A stretch of DNA of 64,000 bases, taken from Candidatus Eiseniibacteriota bacterium. Its GTDB lineage: Bacteria; Eisenbacteria; RBG-16-71-46; JACRLI01. The position numbers and the translations under genes were made by a program. Below are positions 17,833 to 53,816 of the stretch, piece after piece. The stretch lies in assembly GCA_016235265.1 (NCBI GenBank), contig JACRLI010000004.1, positions 171,485 to 235,484 on the forward strand. Reading direction: 5' to 3'. The notes beneath the pieces are model-generated. The model saw nothing but the letters and a program-made list of their open reading frames with translations. It did not search any database and was not told the DNA's origin. Within the stretch, counting starts at the first letter, position 1. Each line of letters starts with the position of its first letter.

Positions 17833-18771
17833 CTAGGCGCCCACTTCCAACTCCAGCATCTCCACCAGCAGGTCGGCCATCGTCACGAGGTCCAGCATGT
17901 TGTGGTGGAAGACCGGGACCAGGGGGTAGGGGTCTCCGTTCTTGACGTAACGGTGATAGCGGCCGGGGATCTCCGAGCCGGGGACGTCGCCCATCCGGCG
18001 CCGGCCGACCACCTTCCACTCCAGCGTCTGCAGGCGGCAGTTCTCGAAGTGGCCGCGCCAGTGGCGGCGGGAATGCGGAAGCAGGTCCACGTGGAACGGG
18101 TCGGCCGGCACCTTGAGCCGGTGGTACGCCGCCCGCGTCTTGATCATGGGCCAGTCGAAGCTGCGGCCGTTGAAGGTGACCAGGTTGGGGCGCTCGTCCA
18201 GGAGGTCGATGGTGGCCCGGATCAGCGCCTTCTCCTCGGCGTAGTGGCGGGCGAAGTACTGGCGCAGAATCCAGTCGTTGCGGCCCGCCACCATCACGCC
18301 CGTGAGGAACACCGGGCACTGCACCAGGCCGGCGGTCTCGAGGTCCAGGAACAGCGCCTTGCCCAGGCCGTCGTCCAGCAGCTTCGCCAGCTGTTCGTGC
18401 AGGTCGAGCTTCAGGGCCCGCTTGCGCGCGGCGTCCAGCCGGCGCAGGAACCGGGCGGTGAACTTGTCCAGTTCGGAGCGGCGGCGCTCGTGGAGGAACA
18501 GGGGACCGTGCGCGGTGTCGATCTCGCCGCCGGGCAGGTACACCTCCACGCCCACGGGCTCGATGTGAACCTCACTGCGGGCCACGGAGGCGCCGGCGGA
18601 GCCCGCGCGGCGGGCGGCAGCGGGTCGCTTTGCAGCGTTGGCGCGTGCCGGGGCGCGGGCACCCGGGCGCGCCGCGCCGGTGCCCCCGGCGCGCGCCGCG
18701 CCCGCGCCGCCCGCGCCCCTCGTGCCCCGCTTGAGCGCCTGCAGGCGCTCCTTCATACGCTCAGACGCCAC
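17833..18771 (-). CDS. mrfB: RNase H-like fold exonuclease, YprB/MrfB-like
   Basis: The exonuclease motif is LFLDLETAG, followed by LVTFNGRSFDWPM and HHNMLDLV. It lies immediately downstream of, and overlaps, the DUF1998 helicase, as in Bacillus yprA-yprB (mrfAB). Confidence 0.7.
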   Translation of the reverse strand: MASERMKERLQALKRGTRGAGGAGAARAGGTGAARPGARAPARANAAKRPAAARRAGSAGASVARSEVHIEPVGVEVYLPGGEIDTAHGPLFLHERRRSELDKFTARFLRRLDAARKRALKLDLHEQLAKLLDDGLGKALFLDLETAGLVQCPVFLTGVMVAGRNDWILRQYFARHYAEEKALIRATIDLLDERPNLVTFNGRSFDWPMIKTRAAYHRLKVPADPFHVDLLPHSRRHWRGHFENCRLQTLEWKVVGRRRMGDVPGSEIPGRYHRYVKNGDPYPLVPVFHHNMLDLVTMADLLVEMLELEVGA

Positions 18772-21265
18772 CGAGGATGCTCCGCAGCAGCGTGCGGGTG
18801 GTCTCCTTCTCGGGGATGGGCCAGCCGTGCTGCACGTCGGGGTCCTGCTGCTGCGCCGGGCGCAGGATGGGCAGCCCCACGCACGAGGGGCAGCCGGCGG
18901 CGCAGGGGCATTCCTCCAGCAGGTCGCGCGCGGCGCGCAGGGCGTCCTCGAAACGCTGGAAACCCTGCTCGGCGAAGCCCAGCCCGCCGGGATAGCGATC
19001 GTAGAGGAACATGGTGGGCTTGCCGAAATTGGCGGAGTCCACGATGCCGCCCAGGTCGGAGCGGTCGCACATGGACATCAGCGGCACGATGGTGATGAGC
19101 AGGTTGCGCAGCCCCACCAGCCCCTCCACCGGGTTGCGGCCCTGGCGCACCACGTCCAGCCACGCCCGATCCGAGGGGCGGAACCACATCGCCTGGGTAT
19201 CCAGCTTGAGCCGCGGCAGCTCCAGCGCGCGGTAGCCGATGGAATCCAGCGAGTGGAACTTGATCTTCTTGAACCCCACCGTGGCCCACGAAACGGTGGC
19301 CTCGCCGGTGCGCGCCATTTCGCCGGGAAGGAACTCGCGCTCCGCGCCCTGCCTCGTCACGCGCAGGTTGGAGTCCAGCACCGCCTGGGTGTAGTAGTCC
19401 ACCTGGCGCTTCTCCACGTAGGCCACCTTCTGCGCCAGGTCCAGCTCGCGCACGAAGAACGTGTCGCCCTCGTGCAGGTAGATGGCCTCGGGGTAGACCA
19501 GCTCCGGTGCGCTGATGGCGTCCACCGTGGCCAGCACCGCGTTCTCGCGCCCGGAGTCCACGATGGTGAAGGTGTCGTCGGAGATGGTGCGCAGCGGCGT
19601 GCGCGCGGCGGGGAACTCGGTGCTGGACCAGTACCACGCGCCCTCGAGCTGCTTGAGCTGCCCCTCCTCCTCCAGGATGCGCGCCACCTCGCCCGCCAGC
19701 GGCCCGAACCACTCGTCGTCGCCGGGACGGATGGGCAGCTCGTAGGCCGCGCACGCCAGGTGCGAGGCCAGGATGTGCGGGTTCTCGGGGTCAATCACCG
19801 CGGCCTCGGGCGAAGCGGCGAAGAAATACTCGGGGTGGCGCATCAGGTACTGGTCGATGGGGTCGTTGTACGCCACCAGCACCGCCATGCTGGGGTGCCG
19901 CCCGCGCCCCGCGCGGCCCGCCTGCTGCCACGCGGAGGCGATGGTGGTGGGAAAGCCCACCAGGATGGACGCGTCCAGGCTGCCCACGTCGATCCCCAGC
20001 TCCAGCGCGTTGGTGCTCACCACGCCCTTGAGCTCGCCCGAGAACAGCCGGCGCTCGATGTCGCGCCGCTCCTCGGGCAGGTAGCCGCCCCGGTAGGGGC
20101 TGACCGCCTCGGCCAGGTCGCGCCGGTCGCGCGAGAGCGCCTCGCGCGCGTAGCGGTAGATCAACTCCGCCGTCACCCGCGCCCGGGTGAACACGATGCT
20201 CTGGACGTCGTCGCGCACCAGCGAGGTGAACAACTCCTGGCCCTCGACGTTGCTGCTGCGCCGCTCCATCTTCGCGTCGTCCAGGAACGGCGGGTTCCAG
20301 AACACAAAGTGCCGCGGCCCGCGCGGCGAACCGTCCTGGTCCACCAGGTCCACGGGCATGCCGAAGAGCGCCTCCGCCAGCTCCGAGGGGTTGCGGATGG
20401 TGGCCGAGGAGGCGATGAACACCGGGTCGGCGCCGTAGTGGCGCGCCACGCGCCGCAACCGGCGCAGCACGTGGGCCACGTGCGAGCCGAAGATGCCGCG
20501 GTAGCTGTGGATCTCGTCCACCACCACGTAGCGCAGCGAGGCGTAGAAGCGCGCCCAGCGGTCGTGATAGGGCAGCACCCCCTGGTGCAGCATGTCGGGG
20601 TTGGTGAGCACCACGTTGCCGGTGTCACGCAGCTTCTTGCGCGTGTGCGGGGTGGTGTCGCCGTCGTAGGTGCCGGCGCGCACCAGGTCGCCCAGCTCCG
20701 GCGCGCCGTCGGCCAGCCTGCGCAGCGCCTTGAGCTGGTCCTGCGCCAGCGCCTTGGTGGGGAAGAGGTAGAACGCGGTCGCGCCCGGCTCGGCCATCAG
20801 CCGCTCCAGCACCGGGAGGTTGTAGCACAGCGTCTTGCCGGAGGCCGTGCCGCTCACCACCACCAGGCTCCTGCCCTCGCGCGCCAGGTCCACGGCGCGC
20901 GCCTGGTGCCGGTAGAGCCGGGTGATCCCCGCGCGCTCCAGCGAGGCCGCGAGGGGCGCCGGGAGCGGCGCGGTGGGTTCGGCCCAGGCGGCTTCGCGAG
21001 GCGGGATGCGCTGCACGTGGACCACCTGGCCCGCGTAGTCGCGGCGGTGGGTGAGCTCCGCGAGGAAGCGGTCGAAATCGAACGACGGGCGGGCCGCGCG
21101 AGGGTCGGAGACGCGCGGCTTCCCGGGCGGATTCGGGAGCGACGCGGGGTCGTGACGCGTGGCCGGCACCAGCCCGAAGTCGGCGAAGAGGTTCTCTGGC
21201 GGCGGGCGGTGCGAGCCGGGATCCAGCACGCCGCCGTTGCTGCCGTCGAACTCGCCGCGCTTCAC
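18761..21265 (-). CDS. mrfA: DEAD/DEAH-box helicase with C-terminal DUF1998 Zn-binding domain, YprA/MrfA-like
   Basis: Motif I is SGTASGKT, motif II is VVDEIH, and the helicase C region contains QQAGRAGR. The C-terminal cysteine cluster is CPCAAGCPSC. I set the start to GTG at 21263-21265, which overlaps the upstream stop (GTGA). The rest of the 957-aa ORF looks like a GC-artefact extension. Confidence 0.85.
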   Translation of the reverse strand: MKRGEFDGSNGGVLDPGSHRPPPENLFADFGLVPATRHDPASLPNPPGKPRVSDPRAARPSFDFDRFLAELTHRRDYAGQVVHVQRIPPREAAWAEPTAPLPAPLAASLERAGITRLYRHQARAVDLAREGRSLVVVSGTASGKTLCYNLPVLERLMAEPGATAFYLFPTKALAQDQLKALRRLADGAPELGDLVRAGTYDGDTTPHTRKKLRDTGNVVLTNPDMLHQGVLPYHDRWARFYASLRYVVVDEIHSYRGIFGSHVAHVLRRLRRVARHYGADPVFIASSATIRNPSELAEALFGMPVDLVDQDGSPRGPRHFVFWNPPFLDDAKMERRSSNVEGQELFTSLVRDDVQSIVFTRARVTAELIYRYAREALSRDRRDLAEAVSPYRGGYLPEERRDIERRLFSGELKGVVSTNALELGIDVGSLDASILVGFPTTIASAWQQAGRAGRGRHPSMAVLVAYNDPIDQYLMRHPEYFFAASPEAAVIDPENPHILASHLACAAYELPIRPGDDEWFGPLAGEVARILEEEGQLKQLEGAWYWSSTEFPAARTPLRTISDDTFTIVDSGRENAVLATVDAISAPELVYPEAIYLHEGDTFFVRELDLAQKVAYVEKRQVDYYTQAVLDSNLRVTRQGAEREFLPGEMARTGEATVSWATVGFKKIKFHSLDSIGYRALELPRLKLDTQAMWFRPSDRAWLDVVRQGRNPVEGLVGLRNLLITIVPLMSMCDRSDLGGIVDSANFGKPTMFLYDRYPGGLGFAEQGFQRFEDALRAARDLLEECPCAAGCPSCVGLPILRPAQQQDPDVQHGWPIPEKETTRTLLRSILGGV

Positions 21266-22485
21266 CGGTGCGCACCCCGCGCGCGCTCCACCGAGCCCAC
21301 GCGCCAGCGCGAGCCGTCGAAGTGCATGCCGAAGCGGAAGGTGTCGGAACCGAGCCGGCTGGCCAGGAACACCGAGTCGGACTCCGTGTGGCCGGCCTGC
21401 AGCCGCCAGGACCCCTCGGGCAGCACCGCGTCGAGGCGCTGCGCCTCGGCGGCGTCCATCACGGCGGCGTCCCACGCGAAGCGGGACGCCTCGTCGCGTC
21501 CGCGCGGCAGCGATTCCAGGAACCCGGCCAGCGCCGCGTAGGGCGAGTCCTCCGGCTGCTCGGTCACGAACGTGAGGCTCCCCGCCCCCAGGCGCCAGAT
21601 GCGGCTCACGTAACGCCGCGGGCACGCGGCGCACTCTTCAAACGGACCGTGGCCCACCGGGCGGCGGATCACCAGCAGCGGCGCGGCGCCCGGCTGTTCC
21701 ACGAATCCGGGGTCCAGCCCGGCCGTCACCTCCCCGGTGATGGCGGCCGCGCCGGCCAGCGAGTCCGCGGGTGGCAGCGAGTCCCACGACGCCCATCCCC
21801 CCCTGCCCTGCAGGTCCAGGCCGTCGAATGCGAAGCGCGGCCCCTCGGCGGTGGAGATCACGCCGGCCGCGGCGGCGTGCAACCCGTCGTGGGTGAACCA
21901 TGCGGCGGACGCGACGCGCGTGGGGTTGCTGATCTGCAGCGACACCCAGCCGATGCGCCCGCCCAGCCGGTAGAAGAGGTAAGGCGCGCGGTAGCGCACC
22001 GCCGCCCGCGGACGGAAGGTGACCAGCACGGCCCGGGCGTCGCCCGGCGCCCGGGCCAGCTCCGCGGGGACACCCATCGAGTCCAGCAGCTTGCGCAGCA
22101 CCGGCAGGCCCGGCATGGAGTCCGCGGACGGCGGCGCCATGGAGGACAGCGCGCGCGCCCAGAGGTCGAAGCCGCGGCGCATCGAGGCGGGATCGGCGCC
22201 GGGATCCACGCCCAGCAGCGAATCGCCGCTGTCCAGCCAGGTTCCCGCGGAGTCCGGCGCGGGTGGCGGCGGAAGCTGGGCCGCGGTCTGCGGCCCGCGC
22301 GGGCCGCGACGCAGGCAGCCCGCGCGCTCGGCCACCGCCAGCAAGCCGCCCACGCCGAAGATCATCACCACCAGCAGCACGCCGACGGCGATGCGCAGGC
22401 TGGGCGGGCCGGGCAGGCGGGAGGGGCCATTCCCGGGGGCGTTTCCGGGGACGTCCGGGGACCCAGGGGAGCCCGGCGCGCTCAT
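21262..22485 (-). CDS. hypothetical membrane-anchored protein
   Basis: It has a Pro/Gly-rich N-terminus, one TM helix (IAVGVLLVVMIFGVGGLLAV) and a large domain with no match I recognise. It is translationally coupled on both sides. Confidence 0.55.
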   Translation of the reverse strand: MSAPGSPGSPDVPGNAPGNGPSRLPGPPSLRIAVGVLLVVMIFGVGGLLAVAERAGCLRRGPRGPQTAAQLPPPPAPDSAGTWLDSGDSLLGVDPGADPASMRRGFDLWARALSSMAPPSADSMPGLPVLRKLLDSMGVPAELARAPGDARAVLVTFRPRAAVRYRAPYLFYRLGGRIGWVSLQISNPTRVASAAWFTHDGLHAAAAGVISTAEGPRFAFDGLDLQGRGGWASWDSLPPADSLAGAAAITGEVTAGLDPGFVEQPGAAPLLVIRRPVGHGPFEECAACPRRYVSRIWRLGAGSLTFVTEQPEDSPYAALAGFLESLPRGRDEASRFAWDAAVMDAAEAQRLDAVLPEGSWRLQAGHTESDSVFLASRLGSDTFRFGMHFDGSRWRVGSVERARGAHR

Positions 22486-23879
22486 GGACCGGTCTTCCCG
22501 GGCTTGCGCTCAGCCTCGCCTGCCGGGCCCGAGCGCTTCTTCGATGGTGGCGTGTGCCGCCTCTCCGGAGCGGGCGGGGTGGAAGTGTCCACTTCGTAGC
22601 CGAAGTACGCCCAGCGCCGGTCGCGCTGGCCGCCGAAGACGCGCAGCCGGCCCACCGCGGGATGCGAGACGGTCATGGTGTCGAAGCGCGCGCCGAAAGA
22701 CTCGAGCCTCCAACCCGAGGAGGCCTTGTCCCAGGGCAGGGCCGCGATGCTGTCCAGGGCGGCCGCGCTGCGCGCGTAGGGCAGCGCCCATTCCTTGTGC
22801 CCGCGCGCCAGCGCTTCCATCACCCAGGACGAGGGGCCAAAGGAGGACGGGTCCAGGCCGCGGGACCTGGTGTGCAGGGAATCGGCGTGCACTTCGTAGC
22901 GGCTCCGGAGCAGCACGTTGGTCTGCGTGGGCGGGTTGCTGAAGAGGTTCGATACCTGGATCTGGATCACGTCCAGACGCGGGAACTCGGAGGTGGGTGA
23001 ATCCAGTCCGACGGTGGCGTTGCGGCCGAACCTGGATTCGTCGTACGTCGCGACGGGCTTCCAGCCTTCCGGATCGCGCCGCAGCACCTGCAGGCTGTAG
23101 CGGGAAACTGCCGAGCCCACGCCCTGGAGGCTCATGATGGCATAGTCCCGGCCGCCTTCCGTCCAGGCGCGGACGGCCTGCCCGGAGAAGCAGCACGGGT
23201 CCGGGGACGGCAGGCGCACCGAGCCGACGCCCGTCGGAGTCCTGTCCATGAGGTACAGGGCGGTCTCATCGGGACGCATGCCGTTGTAGAAGGTGACGAG
23301 GATCGGGAAGCCGCGCTGCTTCGAGCGCTGGACGTTGGCGCGCAGGCCGTGGTCGGTGAGGTACTGCGGGCCGCGGGAGTCTTCGAGGACGCGGTCTCCC
23401 AGGGCCACCACGAGCACGTGCAGCGCTTCGATGAAGCACTGCCAGGCCTTCGGGTGGTCCAGCGCGGGGCCGGTGTACTTCGGATCCGTCTCGCGAATCA
23501 GGAGCGTCTGGCCCTGCGAGACCAGCTGCAGCACGCTGTCCTCCACGGCGCGGGGCAGGACCAGCGGGCCCGTCTCCTGCGGGGCGTTCTCCTCGGCGGC
23601 GGTGGCGGCACCGGCGGGAGCGGCACCGGCGGGAGCGGCACTGGCGGGAGCGGCGCTGGCGGGAGCGGCACCGGCAGGAGCGGCGGGGGCCACGCCCGGA
23701 CCGGTGATGAGTCCGAGTGCCAGGGCGAGGCCGGCGAGCCACACCACCCAGGAGCGGCCCGAGTACCACCGCACCGGGGCGCAACCGACGGGCCACCGCG
23801 CCGGGGCGGAACCGGTGAGGCACTGCGCCATGGCGGGGCGGCATGCCACCGAAGGGGACGGTCGCGCGTCACGGATCAT
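22482..23879 (-). CDS. hypothetical membrane-anchored/secreted protein with an Ala-Pro repeat linker
   Basis: It has a TM or signal segment (WVVWLAGLALALGLI), a (APAGA/APASA)n linker and a roughly 350-aa domain of unknown type. Confidence 0.55.
   Translation of the reverse strand: MIRDARPSPSVACRPAMAQCLTGSAPARWPVGCAPVRWYSGRSWVVWLAGLALALGLITGPGVAPAAPAGAAPASAAPASAAPAGAAPAGAATAAEENAPQETGPLVLPRAVEDSVLQLVSQGQTLLIRETDPKYTGPALDHPKAWQCFIEALHVLVVALGDRVLEDSRGPQYLTDHGLRANVQRSKQRGFPILVTFYNGMRPDETALYLMDRTPTGVGSVRLPSPDPCCFSGQAVRAWTEGGRDYAIMSLQGVGSAVSRYSLQVLRRDPEGWKPVATYDESRFGRNATVGLDSPTSEFPRLDVIQIQVSNLFSNPPTQTNVLLRSRYEVHADSLHTRSRGLDPSSFGPSSWVMEALARGHKEWALPYARSAAALDSIAALPWDKASSGWRLESFGARFDTMTVSHPAVGRLRVFGGQRDRRWAYFGYEVDTSTPPAPERRHTPPSKKRSGPAGEAERKPGKTGP
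23607..23681. repeat. in-frame 15-bp tandem repeat, 5 copies (ggcaccggcgggagc and variants)
   Basis: I counted the copies directly: 23607-21, 22-36, 37-51, 52-66 and 67-81. The repeat encodes the AP(A/S)GA linker of the 22482..23879 product. Confidence 0.9.
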
Positions 23880-23913: not shown

Positions 23914-24876
23914 TCACAGGGCCAGTCCGTCCCGCCGGAGCATCTCCTGCATCAGCATCGCGTTTGCGGCCGCGTGCCCGGCGTGGCAGTTGTTGAAGAA
24001 GACGTAGGTGCGGGCCGCCTGCGAAGCCAGCTCGCGGATTCTATGGAGCCACTCGCGCAGCTCCGCCTCGTTGTAGTCGTAGTCGTAGCGGTCCCCCCCG
24101 CCCCGGCCCCACCAGTTGGCGGCGTTGCGGCCGTGGAGGCGGACGTAGCCCGTCCCGGTGGTGGCGACCGCACGCGGCGGCACCAGCCCCGGCAGGGCGG
24201 GCTCATCCACACAACAATAGCCGATTCCGCGCTCTCTCAAGAGGCCGAACACGTCGGGCCGGTCCCACTCGTCGCGGCGGAACTCCACGTGGAGCGGATC
24301 GTCCGGGAAGGCGTTTCGCAGGAAGTCCAGGTGCCGCAGACTCTCCGGGGCATATCGGAACGCCCAAGGGAACTGGGCCAGCAGACCCTTCAGCTTTCCG
24401 GACTCCCGCAGAGGCTCCAGCGCCGCGAGGAACTCGCGGTACAGGGAGGGGTCGGTGGAGCCCCTGTGGGTCATGTCCTGGTGGAGCTTCACCATGAACT
24501 CGAAGCCCGGGGGCGTCTTGCGCTCCATTTGCTCCATGGTGCGCGGGGGCGGGATGCGGTAGTAAGTGGCGTTCACCTCCACCACCGGAAACTGCCGGGC
24601 GTAGTGCGGGAGCATGGCGGACTTGGGGGTGCCCGAGGGGTAGAACGGACCGAGCCAGTCGGCGAAGGAGTAGCCGGAGGTGCCCACGACGACGGGGGAA
24701 GTGGCGGAGGGGTGGACGACGGGGGGCGCGGGCGCGGCGTCGGAACCTTCGGAGGACGCGGCCGGACCATCCCCGGGCGCGGGCTGCCGCGAGGACTCGG
24801 ACTGCGGCACGGGTGCGTCCTCAGCCCACAGGCAGGGCTGCGAGTCCGACTTGCGGCTGCGGCGGGAAGGTGGCAT
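23914..24876 (-). CDS. DUF72 (YecE-like) family protein with a roughly 60-aa low-complexity N-terminal extension
   Basis: VVVGTSGYSFADWLGPFYP...LPHYARQFPVVEVNATYYRIP matches the DUF72 N-terminal signature. The ATG lies 15 nt after the dinB stop. Confidence 0.8.
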   Translation of the reverse strand: MPPSRRSRKSDSQPCLWAEDAPVPQSESSRQPAPGDGPAASSEGSDAAPAPPVVHPSATSPVVVGTSGYSFADWLGPFYPSGTPKSAMLPHYARQFPVVEVNATYYRIPPPRTMEQMERKTPPGFEFMVKLHQDMTHRGSTDPSLYREFLAALEPLRESGKLKGLLAQFPWAFRYAPESLRHLDFLRNAFPDDPLHVEFRRDEWDRPDVFGLLRERGIGYCCVDEPALPGLVPPRAVATTGTGYVRLHGRNAANWWGRGGGDRYDYDYNEAELREWLHRIRELASQAARTYVFFNNCHAGHAAANAMLMQEMLRRDGLAL

Positions 24877-24891: not shown

Positions 24892-26163
24892 TCAGTCCCT
24901 GCAGATCATCGCGCCCGCGCGCACCAGCACGTCTTCCCCCAGGCGGTCGCGCAGCGCGTCCACGGCCTCGATCATGATACGGGAGCGCCGCTCCACCGGG
25001 AACAGCAGCTGCTGAGGGTCCGGGGACATCCGGGTGAGCTCGGACAGGGAGACCCCGAGCAGGCGGACGCCGCGGTGCCTGCGGCTCGCGAGCGAGGAGA
25101 CGTCCCGCGCCTCCGTGGCGGTGTTGACTTCCGCCTCCTGCAGCCGCCGGAACAGCGCCGCCGCCGCCCGGTAGATCTCCAGCCCACCGCTCACCCAGCT
25201 ACCCAGCCGCTGCTGCCCCTGCCGGGTGGTGAAATCCCCCTGCCGCACCTTCACGCTCACCACGCGACCGGCGAAGCCCTGGGCGCGCGCGCGGCGGGCC
25301 ACCTGGTCGCTGAGGCGCAGCAGGTGCGCGTGCAGCCTCTCGGGATCGGCTTCGTCGCGCGCCAGGGTGTGCTCGTGGCCGATGGACTTGGCGTCGGGCG
25401 ACTGGTCGTAGGGCACCACCGGCGAGTCGTCCTCGCCGCGGGCCACCAGCTTCAGCCCCGGCCCCACCACGCCGAAAGTCGCGGAGAGGATCTCGCGGGG
25501 TGCGGCCGCGAGCTGGTTCACGGTCAGGATGCCCAGCGCGTTCATGGCCTTCGCGGTGGCTTCCCCCACCCCCCACAGTTCCTGGACCGGCTGGGGGCCG
25601 AAGTGCCTTCGGAAGTCGGCCTCCGAGAAGCAGGTCAGTCCCTCGGGCTTGTGCACCCCGGAGGCCATCTTGGCCACGAACTTGTTCGGCCCGATGCCCA
25701 CCGAGGCGGTGAGGCGCAGCTCGTCACGGATGCGCCGCTGGATGCGCGATGCCAGCGCCAGCATGCCCGGCCTGCCCCGCACCTGCCCGGTAAGTTCCAG
25801 GAACGCCTCGTCGATGCTGAATGGTTCGACGGTGGGGCTGGCCGAGCGCAGGATGTCCAGCACCTCCAGGGAGAGGTGGATGTACTTGGTCGGGTCCCCC
25901 TCCACGAACTCGCCGTGGGGACAGAGCCGGCGCGCCTCGGCCACCGGCATGCCACAGCGCACCCCGAAGGGCCGGGCCTCGTAGGAAGCGGTGGCCACCA
26001 CCCCGCGCCCCTGGGTGCTGCCGCACACCATCACCGGACGGCCCCGCAGGCGGGGGTTGAAGAGCTGCTCCACCGAGGCAAAGAAGGCGTCCATGTCCAC
26101 GTGGAACACCACGCGGCGGAGCGATGGCTCCCCGGGGGAGCGGGAAACGGGCTCCACTCTCAT
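24892..26163 (-). CDS. dinB: DNA polymerase IV (Y-family)
   Basis: From the internal Met the sequence is MRVEPVS...VVFHVDMDAFFASVEQ, then SIDEAFLEL and VGIGPNKFVAKMAS. The product is 423 aa, and I verified the ATG at 26161-26163. The upstream part of the 802-aa ORF is non-genic-looking. Confidence 0.9.
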   Translation of the reverse strand: MRVEPVSRSPGEPSLRRVVFHVDMDAFFASVEQLFNPRLRGRPVMVCGSTQGRGVVATASYEARPFGVRCGMPVAEARRLCPHGEFVEGDPTKYIHLSLEVLDILRSASPTVEPFSIDEAFLELTGQVRGRPGMLALASRIQRRIRDELRLTASVGIGPNKFVAKMASGVHKPEGLTCFSEADFRRHFGPQPVQELWGVGEATAKAMNALGILTVNQLAAAPREILSATFGVVGPGLKLVARGEDDSPVVPYDQSPDAKSIGHEHTLARDEADPERLHAHLLRLSDQVARRARAQGFAGRVVSVKVRQGDFTTRQGQQRLGSWVSGGLEIYRAAAALFRRLQEAEVNTATEARDVSSLASRRHRGVRLLGVSLSELTRMSPDPQQLLFPVERRSRIMIEAVDALRDRLGEDVLVRAGAMICRD

Positions 26164-26504
26164 CGTGCCTGCTCGCTCGTCTGCAGACCGCCCATTGTCC
26201 GAGCCTTCGTCTGCCGACTGAGCGGCCCCGGTGCGGGGTGCTGTTCTGCCTGCTGCAGTCCGTTCCGCACCGGGACCGGGATTTGGGTCAGGGGGCGGAG
26301 CCTGGAGGCCGCGCCGAAGCCGGTCTCCGGGTCGCCCCCCGCGGGCGCTGCCCCTCGGGAGTGCGATCACCCCGGGAGCCGGCCGGCCGGCCGCTCCCGT
26401 TTCCCGCGGGGCGCTGCGCGCCCGGAATTCAGGTGGCTGGATGGAATCGTGGGGCGTGATCGTGACGGCGTTTCCGCCGGGTTCCTCTCGATTCGATGCC
26501 TCCC

Positions 26505-26759
26505 TCACGCTCCATCCAGCCACACCTTTGCCAGGGTCCACTGCATCTTGCGGGCGTCGTATGCCAGTTCGAAGTAGTCGGAGGTTTCGCCCAGCACCGA
26601 GTAGTAATGGATGCGGGCATCCCCCTCCTTGCGAACCCACTCCCCGGTCACCTTCGAAACCTTCACCACGCGGGTGCGCCACTTGAATCGGAGCGGCTGC
26701 GCGTGGCCCTCGGAAAAAACGGAGATGACTTCGATCGGTTCCTGGACCGACTGGATCAC
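26505..26759 (-). CDS. small hypothetical protein (about 84 aa)
   Basis: The ORF lies in the lexA-dinB block. A GTG start is preceded by GGAAGG-N5. The product (PLRFKWRTRVVKVSKVTGEW...YFELAYDARKMQWTLAKVWL) looks beta-rich. I cannot assign a family with confidence. Confidence 0.45.
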   Translation of the reverse strand: MIQSVQEPIEVISVFSEGHAQPLRFKWRTRVVKVSKVTGEWVRKEGDARIHYYSVLGETSDYFELAYDARKMQWTLAKVWLDGA

Positions 26760-26804
26760 GGGGCCCCTTCCAAAGGGCGGCGAGCGGCCACCCACCAAGC
26801 GGTT

Positions 26805-27281
26805 CTACAGGCGATCCTCGTCCCAGAGCCGGTTCGAGCGGAGCTTCAGGCGCAGGGCCGGGAACGCCTGCATGAGTCGCAGGCTGGTGAGCCCGCGCAC
26901 CTCCCGGGTCACGGACTCGGGGCGGTGCAGGCCGTCCAGCTCCACCAATACGTCCAGGCGGTCGGGGTTGGTGGCCACCGACACCAGCCGGTAGCCGGAC
27001 TGCTCCGACAGTTCCTCCAGCGCCTGGTTCAGCTCGAACGCCACGTCGCCCACCAGCACCGGCTTGCGGCCCACGGTGAACAGCGAGACCAGGTGCAGGC
27101 ATTCCAGCGCGACCATCTCCACGGCGCGCTTGCCCTGCGCGGTTCCCGCGGCCCCGGCCCCGGCGCCGGCTCCGGCCGCGCGCCTCACGGGCAGGGGGGT
27201 GATGCGCGCCGGGGACGAGCCGGGAGCTCCCTGTGAAGTGCGGGCGGCCGGACGATCGAACCTCGGAAATGCGGTCGACAT
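26805..27281 (-). CDS. IS200/IS605 TnpA (Y1 transposase)-fold protein, apparently catalytically dead and truncated
   Basis: After a low-complexity A/G/P-rich N-terminus, the segment LHLVSLFTVGRKPVLVGDVAFELNQALEELSEQSGYRLVSVATNPDRLDVLVEL...VRGLTSLRLMQAFPALRLKLRSNRLW follows the IS200 TnpA pattern. However, the HUH position reads LDV, and the ORF stops before the catalytic-Tyr helix. An AAGGAG lies 7 nt upstream of the ATG at 27281. Confidence 0.55.
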   Translation of the reverse strand: MSTAFPRFDRPAARTSQGAPGSSPARITPLPVRRAAGAGAGAGAAGTAQGKRAVEMVALECLHLVSLFTVGRKPVLVGDVAFELNQALEELSEQSGYRLVSVATNPDRLDVLVELDGLHRPESVTREVRGLTSLRLMQAFPALRLKLRSNRLWDEDRL

Positions 27282-27459
27282 GGCATGACTCCTTGCGCAA
27301 ATGTGCAGTTCAGGGGTGCACCTGCCCCACCGCGATGCGCGTCGGGGGGCCCTACGCACAGCGCGCGAGATGTTGATTCTTCGGCCCGGCCGCGCCGGGA
27401 CTCAAGGTGGGAGCGAACGAACCGGCGCTTCGCCGGACCGATCTCCGGGCTGCGCCCGG

Positions 27460-28086
27460 CTACTCCACCTTCCGCAACACCGCGACCACCTTGCCCAGCA
27501 GCACCAGCTCCTGGCGCGCGGCGATCTCGATGGGTTCAAAGGCGGCGTTGGCAGGCTCGAGGACGATACCGCTTCGCTTGGCTCGGTAGGTCTTCACTGT
27601 GGCCTCGCCGTCCACCAACGCCACCACGATGTCACCGGAGCGGGCTTCGCGCTGCTCCCTCACCACCACCACGTCCCGGTCCAGGATGCCCGCGTCCTTC
27701 ATGGATTCCCCGCGCACGCGCAGGGCGAACACCTTGCCGTGCCCCGCCATGCTGGGGTCGAGGAGCAGCGTATCCTCCACGTTCTCGTCGGAGAGAACCG
27801 GAAGACCGGCAGCCACTCGACCCAGCAGGGGGACAGAAACCGGCTGCGGCGCGGACGCCGCGAGAGTGGGACTGGACGGGGCATGGGTCAGCTCGATGCC
27901 GCGTGAGAGGCCCTGGCTGCGCCGCACATAGCCCTTGGCTTCGAGGCGCTCCAGGAAGTAGCGGACCCCGTTCGTGGAGCGGATGCCCGCGGCCTCCCCG
28001 ATCTCGCGGATGGTGGGCGGAAAGCTCCGCTCCTCCGTGAGCCGCACGATCAGGTTCAGCAGTTCTCTCTCTCGGTCCGTCAGCAT
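27460..28086 (-). CDS. lexA: LexA repressor
   Basis: From the internal Met (verified at 28084-28086) the product is 208 aa. It has a winged HTH (PTIREIGEAAGIRSTNGVRYFLERLEAKGYV), the cleavage site VAAG and the S24 peptidase catalytic motifs GESM and a conserved Lys (ATVKT). Confidence 0.9.
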   Translation of the reverse strand: MLTDRERELLNLIVRLTEERSFPPTIREIGEAAGIRSTNGVRYFLERLEAKGYVRRSQGLSRGIELTHAPSSPTLAASAPQPVSVPLLGRVAAGLPVLSDENVEDTLLLDPSMAGHGKVFALRVRGESMKDAGILDRDVVVVREQREARSGDIVVALVDGEATVKTYRAKRSGIVLEPANAAFEPIEIAARQELVLLGKVVAVLRKVE

Positions 28087-28188
28087 GTCGTCCCTTTCTT
28101 CGGTCTCCGGACCGGGGCGCAGAATGCCCGGCCCGGGCCGAATGGCCCTGGTGAGGGCGCGTCCCACGACCTCACGAATCGAAGAGTA

Positions 28189-28204
28189 CTGCACGGAAGG
28201 GCAG
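28189..28204. promoter_or_regulatory. candidate LexA operator (CTG-N10-CAG)
   Basis: The sequence taCTGCACGGAAGGGCAGga lies about 100 bp upstream of the lexA ATG. The left arm TACTG equals the gamma/beta-proteobacterial SOS-box arm. A related ACTGCAC-N7-CAAG lies upstream of the next gene (27292-27309). Confidence 0.3.
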
Positions 28205-28252
28205 GAATCAAGTGGAAAGTGCCCGGATGGGCAGGAAACAGACAAAGAGGCG

Positions 28253-28282
28253 GTAACTTGTTGTAATATTGCGTAATACCAT
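28253..28282. repeat. three helically phased direct repeats GTAAY (period exactly 10 bp) in an AT-rich island
   Basis: GTAAC is at 28253, GTAAT at 28263 and GTAAT at 28273, within ggtaacttgttgtaatattgcgtaatacca. It is the most AT-rich stretch I saw in the lexA-upstream intergenic region. Confidence 0.6.
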
Positions 28283-28530
28283 CGGTGATGGTGGGCTTGA
28301 CCGGGAGTGACCGGACGCGGAGGCAGCGCCAGCCGACTTCTTCGCCTCCATTTGCCCGCTCGCACCCAGGTTGACGGAAAACCAAGCCCGAACGTACCCT
28401 CTTGGCTCCATCGCGAACTCCCGCCGCAGGTTGGGAGAGAATGTACGTCAGGTCGTGCGAAGCCAGCTTCTCGTGAGATCCCAACCCGGCCGCATGAGCG
28501 GTCGGGCGAGCCCTGACAGGAGAAAGCCCG

Positions 28531-53589: not shown

Positions 53590-53682
53590 GCGCGGAGCTT
53601 ACAGAGGGCCGGGCGCGTTGTCCAGAAGCGTTGAGGCACGGGCGCGGGCCGGTGGGACCGCGGGCACGCTGGGGGCGCGCGG

Positions 53683-53799
53683 CGGGGGCGTGCGCCGGGA
53701 GCGCGCGCCGGGAGCGCGCGCCGGGCGCGCGCGGCGGGAGCGCGCGGCGGGAGCGCGCGGCGGGAGCGTGCGCCGGGAGCGCGCGGCGGGAGCGCGCGG
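53683..53799. repeat. 13-bp tandem repeat, 9 contiguous copies (consensus cgggagcgcgcgg)
   Basis: I counted unit by unit: 53683, 53696, 53709, 53722, 53735, 53748, 53761, 53774 and 53787. It is intergenic, between the RHS stop and the DUF502 start. Confidence 0.9.
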
Positions 53800-53816
53800 C
53801 GCCACCGGCCACCCGC

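What the first reader, a model, noticed from the sequence alone, without database searches (positions are those of the whole stretch)
26805..27281. Exapted, catalytically inactive IS200/IS605 TnpA-like protein
Residues from about LHLVSLFTVGRKPVLVG to LRSNRLW track the IS200/IS605 TnpA pattern as I remember it (h-H-h-V-h..K.R...L.G........l.e.........h.....D-HUH-hLh........s.....hKG.sS..L...F..L.......LW).

Three features differ from an active transposase:
- The HUH triad position reads L-D-V (NPDRLDVLVEL).
- The ORF terminates (LWDEDRL*) exactly where the helix carrying the catalytic Tyr would begin.
- The N-terminus carries a 55-aa Ala/Gly/Pro-rich disordered extension.

There is no tnpB and I saw no flanking subterminal hairpin ends. 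It therefore looks like a domesticated DNA-binding module rather than a mobile element or a fresh pseudogene. A good AAGGAG-N7-ATG is retained.
Basis: partly seen in the sequence, partly recalled or inferred. Interest (0 to 1): 0.72.

Follow-up and report, generated by a model that had tools for sequence, protein, structure and literature searches.

The report
Dead transposase recruited into SOS response
This small gene encodes a transposase-derived protein that has lost its DNA-cutting residues. It is conserved across a whole uncultured bacterial phylum as a gene under the DNA-damage repressor LexA, and here it heads a translesion-polymerase repair operon.

Summary
ORF 26805-27281 (minus strand, 158 aa) matches Pfam Y1_Tnp above its cut-off. 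Its predicted core superposes on IS608/ISDra2 TnpA at 1.1-1.4 Å. The HUH motif reads R-L-D, and the ORF stops right after the conserved LW, so the last β-strand and the Tyr helix are missing.

It is not a decaying IS. Seven truncated orthologs keep the same stop position, the same AAGGAG-N7-ATG and the same neighbours.

The gene belongs to a family I found almost only in the candidate phylum Eiseniibacteriota, with 141 distinct sequences. The catalytic Tyr position is never Tyr in any of them (Arg 109, Lys 18). About a third have also lost HUH.

The conserved partner is lexA, immediately upstream. A palindrome TGCAC-N4-GT[G/T]CA lies upstream of lexA in 124 of 124 loci and upstream of the Y1-like gene in 127 of 128. 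A stricter form of the motif occurs only once elsewhere in 1.06 Mb.

In the window the gene is first in a cluster: Y1-like, imuB-C (DUF6504), dinB, DUF72, two unknown genes, and an MrfA-like helicase.

Best reading: an SOS-induced, non-catalytic ssDNA/hairpin-binding protein. Its biochemical role is inferred, not shown. I found no paper describing it.

The parts
26805..27281 (-). Y1-transposase-like gene (158 aa). Residues 1-55 (27117-27281) form a disordered basic A/G/P-rich tail. Residues 56-158 (26808-27116) form the TnpA-like core, with HUH replaced by R-L-D and the last β-strand and Tyr helix absent.
27289..27294 (-). Shine-Dalgarno AAGGAG, 7 nt before ATG 27281. Conserved in L001, L003 and L157.
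27294..27307 (-). Putative LexA operator TGCACATTTGCGCA, abutting the SD. It is orthologous to the perfect palindromes TGCACATATGTGCA (L003) and TGCACGAATGTGCA (L157), and to TGCAC-N4-GTTCA in 127 of 128 family loci.
27460..28086 (-). lexA (208 aa). It has the LexA DNA-binding domain and the S24 peptidase domain. The A-G cleavage site, the Ser in GESM and the Lys in TVKT are visible in the sequence.
28190..28203 (-). Putative LexA operator upstream of lexA (TGCCCTTCCGTGCA, about 118 nt before the ATG).
28220..28233 (-). Second, weaker operator-like site upstream of lexA (TGCCCATCCGGGCA). L001 and L003 have TGC[T/C]CATCCGTTCA at the same place.
26505..26759 (-). Standalone ImuB-C domain gene (Pfam DUF6504, 84 aa, GTG start). 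It is the most conserved gene of the cluster.
26430..26522 (-). Conserved hairpin straddling the imuB-C stop codon (20-bp outer stem). It is present in the truncated-clade loci WIN, L001, L003 and L158, poorly kept in L157, and absent from the other family loci examined.
24892..26163 (-). dinB / Pol IV-type Y-family polymerase. The catalytic motifs DMDAFFASVE and SIDEAF are present.
23914..24876 (-). DUF72 gene.
22482..23879 (-). Unknown protein with no family match. Syntenic in L001 and L003 and fast-evolving.
21262..22485 (-). Unknown protein with no family match. Syntenic and fast-evolving.
18761..21634 (-). MrfA-like DEAD/DEAH helicase (DEAD, Helicase_C, WHD_HRQ1 and MrfA Zn-binding domains). 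21634 is the start of the longest ORF. The real start is probably near 21265, overlapping the stop of the preceding gene as in L001.

Best explanation
The gene encodes a domesticated, catalytically dead derivative of an IS200/IS605 Y1 (HUH) transposase. I read it as a LexA-repressed SOS protein.

**Shown**
- It keeps the TnpA core fold but has neither HUH nor the Tyr nucleophile, so it cannot carry out the covalent cleave-and-join chemistry of TnpA.
- It belongs to a vertically conserved family in Eiseniibacteriota in which the Tyr position is always Arg or Lys.
- It always sits just downstream of lexA.
- It is preceded by a conserved palindrome of the same type as the one in front of lexA.
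- In this window it is the first gene of a cluster: Y1-like, imuB-C, dinB, DUF72, two unknown genes, and an MrfA-like helicase. No other operator-like site lies inside the cluster.

**Inferred**
- After DNA damage, LexA cleavage de-represses the gene.
- The protein, probably a dimer like TnpA, uses the retained TnpA surface plus its basic disordered tail to bind single-stranded or hairpin-forming DNA. Such DNA is exposed at stalled forks and gaps.
- In this lineage it acts together with ImuB-C and DinB. It could mark or hold the ssDNA substrate for translesion synthesis or repair, or limit access to it.
For: **Fold and loss of catalytic residues:**

**Family survey**
- The family was found in 60 GTDB species-representative genomes, almost all labelled Eisenbacteria, and in at least 250 metagenome contigs.
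- Among 141 distinct sequences the Tyr column is R 109, K 18, gap 10, other residues 4, and Y 0.
- HxH is kept in 94 and lost in 47.

**Linkage to lexA and operator**
- 128 unique loci carry lexA followed by the Y1-like gene.
- TGCNC-N4-GTGCA, allowing one mismatch, lies upstream of lexA in 124 of 124 loci and between lexA and the Y1-like gene in 127 of 128.
- The strict pattern TGCAC-N4-GT[GT]CA occurs 236 times in 1.06 Mb of loci. Of these, 114 are before lexA and 121 before the Y1-like gene. The single other site lies 29 nt before a separate imuB-C/dinB module.
- The same box precedes lexA in loci labelled Myxococcota, Latescibacterota, Ignavibacteria and Zixibacteria, none of which has a Y1-like gene in the 2.5 kb held downstream.

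**Not a pseudogene:** synteny and the stop position are conserved in the truncated clade, and dN/dS is 0.35-0.57.

**Nucleic-acid binding is plausible**
- The family domain has a median pI of 10.2 and net charge +6, like canonical TnpAs.
- The non-catalytic TnpA motifs are retained: LH.V, GR.pVL, RE.RG.tS.L and P.LR..L..N.LW.

**Operon partners are DNA-damage proteins**
- DUF6504 corresponds to ImuB-C (PMC3765255; PMC6511836).
- dinB is catalytically intact.
- The helicase is MrfA-like.

**Background:** TnpA of IS608 binds ssDNA hairpins, shows affinity for fork-like DNA and is thought to interact with the β-clamp (PMC6006769, read; PMC5027513, from its abstract only).
Against: - No binding, induction or interaction was measured. 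Everything about function is inferred from context.
- The window protein's own core is acidic (pI 5.7, net -2), unlike the rest of the family. Only the tail is basic.
- The truncated form lacks one β-strand of the sheet, so the TnpA-type dimer and DNA site may not be preserved.
- Purifying selection on the core is weaker than on the neighbouring genes.
- In most of the 88 family loci with at least 1.8 kb held downstream, imuB-C/dinB does not follow the Y1-like gene (7 with imuB-C next, 19 with dinB within 1.2 kb). A dedicated DinB-accessory role therefore cannot be the family's general function.
- I could not find a recognisable sigma-70 promoter, so 'own promoter' rests on operator position only. 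In other loci it also rests on an intrinsic terminator after lexA.
- That the palindrome is the LexA operator is inferred from its position and specificity, and from my recollection of the Fibrobacter LexA box TGCNCN4GTGCA. I could not retrieve the primary paper.
Confidence: 0.6

Rival explanations
1. Dedicated small subunit of a DinB/ImuB-C translesion complex. It would be functionally analogous to UmuD' or YolD/YqjX, with the disordered N-terminal arm docking on the polymerase.
For: - In the window, L001, L003, L007, L010, L012, L157 and L158, the gene lies directly upstream of imuB-C and dinB under a single operator.
- Small subunits with unstructured N-terminal arms are a recurring theme for PolY partners (PMC12926913).
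- In a non-Eisenbacteria locus (L005), a UmuD-like S24 protein follows lexA, and a 360-bp stretch with no called gene then separates it from imuB-C.
- HUH loss correlates with the fused context: lost and fused 19, HxH and solo 63, lost and solo 5, HxH and fused 1.
Against: - In most family loci with enough downstream sequence the Y1-like gene is not followed by imuB-C/dinB, and in some genomes that module lies on another contig (L022 vs L011, L039 vs L013).
- The N-terminal arm has no conserved motif.
- The HUH/context correlation may reflect a single clade.
Confidence: 0.2
2. SOS checkpoint or regulatory factor tied to LexA itself. It could be a cell-division or replication inhibitor, or a modulator of LexA/RecA. 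The analogy is to the non-homologous SOS genes that sit next to lexA in other phyla: sulA, yneA, chiZ and divS (from my own knowledge).
For: The one invariant feature of the family is its position immediately downstream of lexA with its own operator. In most genomes it stands alone there, followed by convergent or unrelated genes.
Against: - The fold is a nucleic-acid-processing fold with a basic surface.
- It has no membrane segment or LysM domain like YneA/ChiZ, and no RecA-like fold like SulA.
- Adjacency alone is weak evidence for function.
Confidence: 0.1
3. Host-encoded dominant-negative inhibitor of IS200/IS605 transposition. It would be produced when damage creates the ssDNA on which these elements move, and would compete for the end hairpins or poison TnpA dimers.
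For: - It keeps the TnpA body while lacking the nucleophile, which is the design expected of a competitive inhibitor.
- It is under SOS control.
- From my own knowledge, ISDra2 transposition is strongly stimulated by irradiation.
Against: - It is only 25-30% identical to any canonical TnpA.
- The window holds no IS200/IS605 copies or repeated hairpins.
- Phylum-wide vertical conservation would require an equally persistent cognate IS.
Confidence: 0.06
4. Decaying remnant of an IS200/IS605 insertion: a truncated pseudogene that merely remains open.
For: - It is truncated at the C-terminus with catalytic residues gone.
- dN/dS is higher than for neighbouring genes.
- The N-terminal tail is low-complexity.
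Against: - The stop position, SD, start codon, operator and neighbours are the same in at least 7 sequences down to 55% identity, with no frameshifts.
- The core is predicted with pLDDT of about 97.
- It is part of a 141-sequence family with strong motif conservation.
- It shows no IS ends, no tnpB and no extra copies.
Confidence: 0.03

Closest known systems
IS200/IS605 TnpA (Y1 HUH transposase; IS608, ISDra2; Pfam PF01797)
   Same: - Homologous core and the same fold (rmsd 1.1-1.4 Å over about 96 residues).
- Shared non-catalytic motifs.
- Small size.
- A basic domain across the family as a whole.
   Different: - No HUH and no Tyr helix. The wider family has a helix but with Arg or Lys in place of Tyr.
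- Single copy, with no subterminal hairpins and no tnpB.
- Vertically inherited at a fixed chromosomal position next to lexA, under a LexA-type operator.
RAYT / TnpA_REP (REP-associated tyrosine transposases)
   Same: A domesticated, single-copy, vertically inherited relative of IS200/IS605 TnpA. JGI automatically names ortholog P0003 'RayT'.
   Different: - RAYTs keep HUH and the catalytic Tyr and are flanked by REP/BIME hairpins (PMC3333891 from its abstract; PMC6006769, read). Here both motifs are lost and no REP-like repeats exist.
- The Foldseek match to RAYT 4er8 is far weaker (E 0.018) than the matches to TnpA.
lexA-imuB-C-polY operon (Geobacter GSU0042 type; Aravind 2013, Timinskas & Venclovas 2019)
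   Same: The same backbone: lexA, a standalone ImuB-C, then an active Y-family polymerase. Those papers report damage induction for the Geobacter operon. The window's ImuB-C hits the Geobacter lexA-adjacent 84-aa ORF at E 5e-5.
   Different: - A Y1-transposase-derived gene with its own operator is inserted between lexA and imuB-C.
- The operon is extended by DUF72, two unknown genes and an MrfA-like helicase.
- Neither paper mentions a transposase-like component.
UmuD' / YolD (YqjX) small subunits of Y-family polymerases
   Same: A small SOS-regulated protein encoded just upstream of a Y-family polymerase, with a disordered N-terminal arm.
   Different: The fold is unrelated: an α/β HUH-type core rather than an SH3-like β-barrel. 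It has no S24 peptidase. Most family members are not adjacent to a polymerase.

Membership tests
IS200/IS605 TnpA (Y1 HUH transposase) | Profile match to PF01797 above the curated cut-off | tested here: met
   33.4 bits against a gathering cut-off of 23
IS200/IS605 TnpA (Y1 HUH transposase) | NCBIfam equivalog transpos_IS200 (NF033573) cut-off | tested here: not met
   40.2 bits against a cut-off of 55
IS200/IS605 TnpA (Y1 HUH transposase) | TnpA α/β core fold | tested here: met
   AF2 core pLDDT of about 97. Foldseek top 29 hits are all TnpA, rmsd 1.1-1.4 Å.
IS200/IS605 TnpA (Y1 HUH transposase) | HUH metal-binding motif | tested here: not met
   PDHVH aligns to PDRLD
IS200/IS605 TnpA (Y1 HUH transposase) | Catalytic Tyr on the C-terminal αD helix (Y-x3-Q) | tested here: not met
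   The ORF ends 5 residues after LW. The only Tyr (Y97) is at the start of β2. The family column is R or K, never Y.
IS200/IS605 TnpA (Y1 HUH transposase) | Mobile-element anatomy: subterminal hairpins, often tnpB, multiple copies | tested here: not met
   The flanks are lexA and imuB-C. No flanking hairpins and no repeats in the window.
RAYT / TnpA_REP | HUH and Tyr retained, gene flanked by REP/BIME repeats | tested here: not met
   Both motifs are absent. No REP-like families. Weak Foldseek match to 4er8.
LexA (SOS) regulon member | LexA operator in the promoter or 5' region | tested here: met
   A box at 27294-27307 abuts the SD. An equivalent box is present in 127 of 128 loci, and the strict motif is otherwise almost absent from 1.06 Mb. 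Operator identity is inferred from its presence before lexA in 124 of 124 loci.
LexA (SOS) regulon member | LexA binding and damage induction | not testable with these tools
   Needs EMSA, ChIP or expression data.
PolY accessory subunits (UmuD', YolD/YqjX, ImuB-C, SRAP) | Homology to a known accessory family | tested here: not met
   Only Y1_Tnp is detected. No PADLOC hit.
PolY accessory subunits (UmuD', YolD/YqjX, ImuB-C, SRAP) | Consistent operon linkage with a Y-family polymerase | tested here: inconclusive
   Linked in the window clade and some others. In most family loci the polymerase is not adjacent: 19 of 88 loci with enough downstream sequence.
ImuB-C superfamily (for the neighbouring DUF6504 gene) | Homology to GSU0042-like proteins and the ImuB C-terminus | tested here: met
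   tblastn gives E 5e-5 to the Geobacter anodireducens lexA-adjacent 84-aa ORF. Pfam DUF6504 matches the Rhodoplanes ImuB C-terminus (411-488) at E 0.025, which is sub-threshold.

The most novel reading that the evidence does not exclude
Tyr-less Y1 proteins are a previously unrecognised class of SOS effector. On this reading an IS200/IS605 transposase inserted between lexA and imuB-C/dinB was captured early in Eiseniibacteriota and now works as a structure-specific ssDNA/hairpin reader. It would direct or gate translesion synthesis and gap repair as a new mutasome component. Alternatively, in the HxH-retaining 'solo' forms, where Arg replaces Tyr, it could act as a metal-dependent hydrolytic ssDNA nuclease.
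Probability: 0.2. Interest if true: 0.85.

Novelty: new variant of a known kind. Interest (0 to 1): 0.68.

Why it matters
- **A different kind of domestication.** Domesticated Y1 transposases known so far (RAYTs) keep their chemistry. Here the chemistry is gone in every member examined, while the fold, the position next to lexA and the operator are conserved across a phylum. That is a clear case of a transposase body reused for a non-catalytic host function inside the DNA-damage response.
- **A first view of the SOS system in Eiseniibacteriota.** I know of no cultured member of this phylum. The data give a candidate operator (TGCAC-N4-GTGCA/GTTCA), a core regulon gene, and a testable new partner for the poorly understood ImuB-C/PolY modules.
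- **An annotation error.** Public records name these genes 'transposase' or 'RayT'. That would inflate mobile-element counts in these genomes.

Tried and rejected
- **Decaying IS remnant.** Rejected on conservation of the stop position, SD, operator and synteny.
- **RAYT.** Rejected: there is no HUH or Tyr, and no REP repeats.
- **Anti-phage defence component.** There are no PADLOC hits except generic helicase matches for the MrfA-like protein.
- **Missing C-terminus in another frame or in the 45-nt gap before imuB-C.** I saw nothing resembling 'SYFxxTVG...Y' there when reading the translations.
- **Rfam scan of the whole window.** No family matched.
- **Sigma-70 promoter and intrinsic terminator scan of 26400-28400.** Nothing found.
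- **Window-only statistics for the operator.** Not significant: 2 exact sites against 1.29 expected. The significance comes only from cross-locus conservation.
- **PDB sequence search with the ImuB-C profile.** Nothing found.
- **Literature searches.** Combinations of DUF6504, Eisenbacteria + LexA, IS200 + LexA/dinB, and inactive/domesticated IS200 found no description of this family. One search failed on syntax.
- **Broad lexA scan meant to measure lexA/Y1 co-occurrence within the phylum.** It returned mostly other phyla, because the patterns were too generic. I used it only as a negative control.
- **Covariation test on the hairpin after imuB-C.** Inconclusive, with only G-U type changes in 3-5 sequences.
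Full report
**1. The observation**

The minus-strand ORF 26805-27281 encodes 158 aa. The start at ATG 27281 is supported by AAGGAG plus 7 nt, and this arrangement is conserved in orthologous loci.

- Pfam Y1_Tnp (PF01797) matches at 33.4 bits against a cut-off of 23, covering profile positions 8-98 of 121.
- The NCBIfam IS200 equivalog model scores 40.2 bits, below its cut-off of 55.
- phmmer against PDB finds ISDra2 and IS608 TnpA (E 1e-6 to 3e-4). The alignment places P-D-R-L-D opposite P-D-H-V-H and ends at chain residue 113 of 140.
- The ORF stops before the last β-strand as well as before the αD helix that carries the Tyr.
- An AlphaFold2 model built on a 55-sequence alignment gives pLDDT of about 97 for residues 60-155 and 51-66 for residues 1-58.
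- The first 29 Foldseek PDB hits are all IS200/IS605 TnpA structures, at rmsd 1.1-1.4 Å over 95-97 residues. The RAYT structure 4er8 is a much weaker hit.

**2. It is not a pseudogene or a mobile element**

- Five close homologs exist in a 5.8-billion-protein collection. All keep PDR[L/F]D and end at L/M/V/F-W-D/E. A sixth, in L003, has PDHVN and ends in LWI.
- Their contigs show the same gene order.
- The domain has dN/dS of 0.35-0.57. The disordered tail gives 0.85 over 40 aligned codons and 0.33 over 19 codons in a second pair. For the same genome pairs the values are LexA 0.21-0.29, DinB 0.27-0.33, ImuB-C 0.12-0.15, and the two unknown genes 0.62-0.86.
- The gene has no flanking hairpins, no repeated copies or REP-like families in the window, and no tnpB. 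Its neighbours are lexA and imuB-C.

**3. Context in the window (minus strand)**

| Element | Coordinates |
|---|---|
| lexA | 27460-28086 |
| Y1-like gene | 26805-27281 |
| DUF6504 gene | 26505-26759 |
| dinB, with intact catalytic motifs | 24892-26163 |
| DUF72 | 23914-24876 |
| unknown gene | 22482-23879 |
| unknown gene | 21262-22485 |
| helicase with DEAD, WHD_HRQ1 and MrfA Zn-binding domains | 18761 to about 21265 |

Sources.

DUF6504 is the standalone ImuB-C domain.
- The window protein hits the 84-aa ORF that follows lexA on a Geobacter anodireducens plasmid (E 5e-5).
- Pfam DUF6504 matches the C-terminus of a Rhodoplanes ImuB, although below threshold.
- Aravind et al. defined ImuB-C from GSU0042-like proteins (PMC3765255).
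- Neither paper, nor the 2026 polymerase survey (PMC12926913), mentions a transposase-like partner.

**4. The wider family**

A more divergent locus (L007) led to longer relatives that keep a C-terminal helix but have no Tyr.

- A scan with their alignment found 60 species-representative genomes. Almost all are labelled Candidatus Eisenbacteria, now phylum Eiseniibacteriota. A few soil-MAG records carry other labels, and I doubt those names are right but did not check them.
- The same alignment found at least 250 metagenome contigs.
- In 141 distinct sequences aligned to a TnpA profile, the catalytic Tyr column is Arg 109, Lys 18, gap 10, other residues 4, and never Tyr.
- HxH is kept in 94 sequences and lost in 47 (QVR 25, RVH 10, RLD 2, and others). 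Only the window, L001 and L003 are truncated.
- An exhaustive profile search of 1.84 billion representatives found only these family members as Tyr-less. Of the other hits, those whose alignment reached the Tyr column had Tyr there in almost every case. About a third stopped short of that column, mostly as short or frameshifted fragments.
- The family domain is basic (median pI 10.2, net charge +6), like canonical TnpAs. The window's core is an exception at pI 5.7, with the positive charge carried by its tail.

**5. Link to LexA**

- The commonest architecture is lexA followed by the Y1-like gene and nothing else recognisable. In long loci the Y1-like gene is followed by unrelated or convergent genes.
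- The imuB-C/dinB/DUF72 module lies elsewhere in some of those genomes (L022 vs L011, L039 vs L013).
- A palindrome TGCAC-N4-GTGCA lies about 70-75 nt upstream of lexA in most loci, and in 124 of 124 loci with enough upstream sequence. A variant, TGCAC-N4-GTTCA, lies between lexA and the Y1-like gene in 127 of 128.
- In most loci an intrinsic terminator follows lexA. Then come about 12 nt, the box, an SD and the start codon.
- The strict motif occurs 236 times in 1.06 Mb: 114 before lexA, 121 before the Y1-like gene, and once elsewhere. That one site is 29 nt before a detached imuB-C/dinB module in L013.
- The same box precedes lexA in loci labelled Myxococcota, Latescibacterota, Ignavibacteria and Zixibacteria, none of which has a Y1-like gene in the sequence held. 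Several of those phyla have imuB-C directly after lexA.
- The window's own boxes each differ by one base from the palindrome: 27294-27307 and 28190-28203, plus a weaker site at 28220-28233. On window statistics alone they are not significant. Their positional orthology to perfect palindromes in L003 and L157 is what identifies them.
- No further box lies between 24543 and 27294, so the cluster downstream of the Y1-like gene has no other operator-like site.
- The motif agrees with the Fibrobacter LexA box as I remember it (TGCNCN4GTGCA). I could not retrieve that paper.

**6. Interpretation**

Shown:
- The protein has a TnpA-fold core without HUH or Tyr.
- It belongs to a phylum-wide Tyr-less family.
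- It has a fixed position after lexA.
- It has its own LexA-type operator.
- Here it is the first gene of an imuB-C/dinB/DUF72/MrfA-like cluster.

Inferred:
- It is induced by the SOS response.
- It binds ssDNA or hairpins without cutting them, through the retained TnpA surface and the basic tail.
- In this lineage it cooperates with ImuB-C and DinB.

A plausible history is that an IS200/IS605 element inserted into an ancestral lexA-imuB-C-polY operon and its TnpA was captured. Most lineages would then have moved imuB-C/dinB elsewhere.

HUH loss correlates with the fused arrangement: 19 lost and fused against 63 HxH and solo. This may reflect one clade rather than repeated events.

Rivals, in order of my confidence:
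- dedicated PolY small subunit (0.2)
- LexA-linked checkpoint or regulator (0.1)
- dominant-negative inhibitor of IS200/IS605 transposition (0.06)
- pseudogene (0.03)

**7. Comparison and novelty**

The protein is homologous to IS200/IS605 TnpA but fails four of that family's six defining features tested here: HUH, Tyr, mobile-element anatomy and the NCBIfam equivalog cut-off. It resembles RAYTs in being domesticated, but RAYTs keep the chemistry and the REP partners. The operon backbone is the known lexA-imuB-C-polY type with an added gene.

Seven literature searches that ran, plus reading of the four most relevant papers, found no description of the family. I rate it a new variant of a known kind. 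The finding is solid at the level of what the gene is and how it is controlled. Its biochemical role remains open.

Noticed in passing
window 26430-26522 (- strand); L001 6613-6706; L003 8621-8716: A conserved hairpin of about 90 nt straddles the imuB-C stop codon. A 20-bp outer stem pairs the last codons of imuB-C with downstream sequence, and there is an inner CGGCG-GAAA-CGCCG hairpin. The RNA fold has ΔG -52 kcal/mol and z -4.4. Only G-U type one-sided changes are seen, with no compensatory pairs. It is present in WIN, L001, L003 and L158 of the truncated-Y1 clade and poorly kept in L157. Elsewhere dinB starts 10-20 nt after imuB-C, whereas the window has a 341-nt spacer.
   Followed up: partly
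L001-L158 loci; window 27294-27307, 28190-28203, 28220-28233: A candidate LexA operator for Eiseniibacteriota is TGCAC-N4-GTGCA before lexA and TGCAC-N4-GTTCA before the Y1-like gene. The same box precedes lexA in loci labelled Myxococcota, Latescibacterota, Ignavibacteria and Zixibacteria (L160, L161, L167, L188, L225, L231).
   Followed up: yes
window 22482-23879 and 21262-22485 (- strand): Two syntenic proteins (465 and 407 aa by longest ORF) lie between DUF72 and the MrfA-like helicase. They have no Pfam, NCBIfam or PADLOC match and evolve fast (dN/dS 0.62-0.86). The first contains a 15-nt tandem repeat (23583-23684) that encodes AAPAG-type repeats.
   Followed up: partly
L005 6556-12459 (ENA scaffold FORT17-1..., not Eisenbacteria): A variant cluster runs lexA, a UmuD-like S24 peptidase (157-172 aa), a 360-bp gap with no called gene, imuB-C, a 105-aa unknown, an 863-aa secreted protein with a Por_Secre_tail, and PolY. 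The S24 protein follows lexA where Eiseniibacteriota have the Y1-like gene.
   Followed up: partly
L003 7497-7870: In one truncated-clade genome a glyoxalase/VOC-like ORF is inserted between lexA and the Y1-like gene. I judged its family by eye only. The operator and SD remain directly in front of the Y1-like gene. In L041 a similar VOC-like ORF follows the Y1-like gene.
   Followed up: no
L163 (DASTSZ010000069.1, labelled Eisenbacteria): This lexA locus has an upstream box but no Y1-like gene within 2.5 kb. A second identical box (TGCACAAATGTGCA) lies within the longest ORF that contains the imuB-C homolog, probably just upstream of its real start, about 2 kb downstream of lexA. It is either an exception to the lexA/Y1 rule or a mislabelled MAG.
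   Followed up: no
window 53647-53815: A 13-nt GC-rich tandem repeat (GAGCGCGCGCCGG-like) with about 13 copies. It is unrelated to the finding.
   Followed up: no
family loci, e.g. MAG MFD05942.bin.1.32 (L031, L064, L075): One Eisenbacteria MAG carries three lexA/Y1-like pairs on different contigs. Two of the LexA copies are divergent (57-61 bits against 171). This suggests duplicated lexA/Y1 modules or a mixed bin.
   Followed up: no
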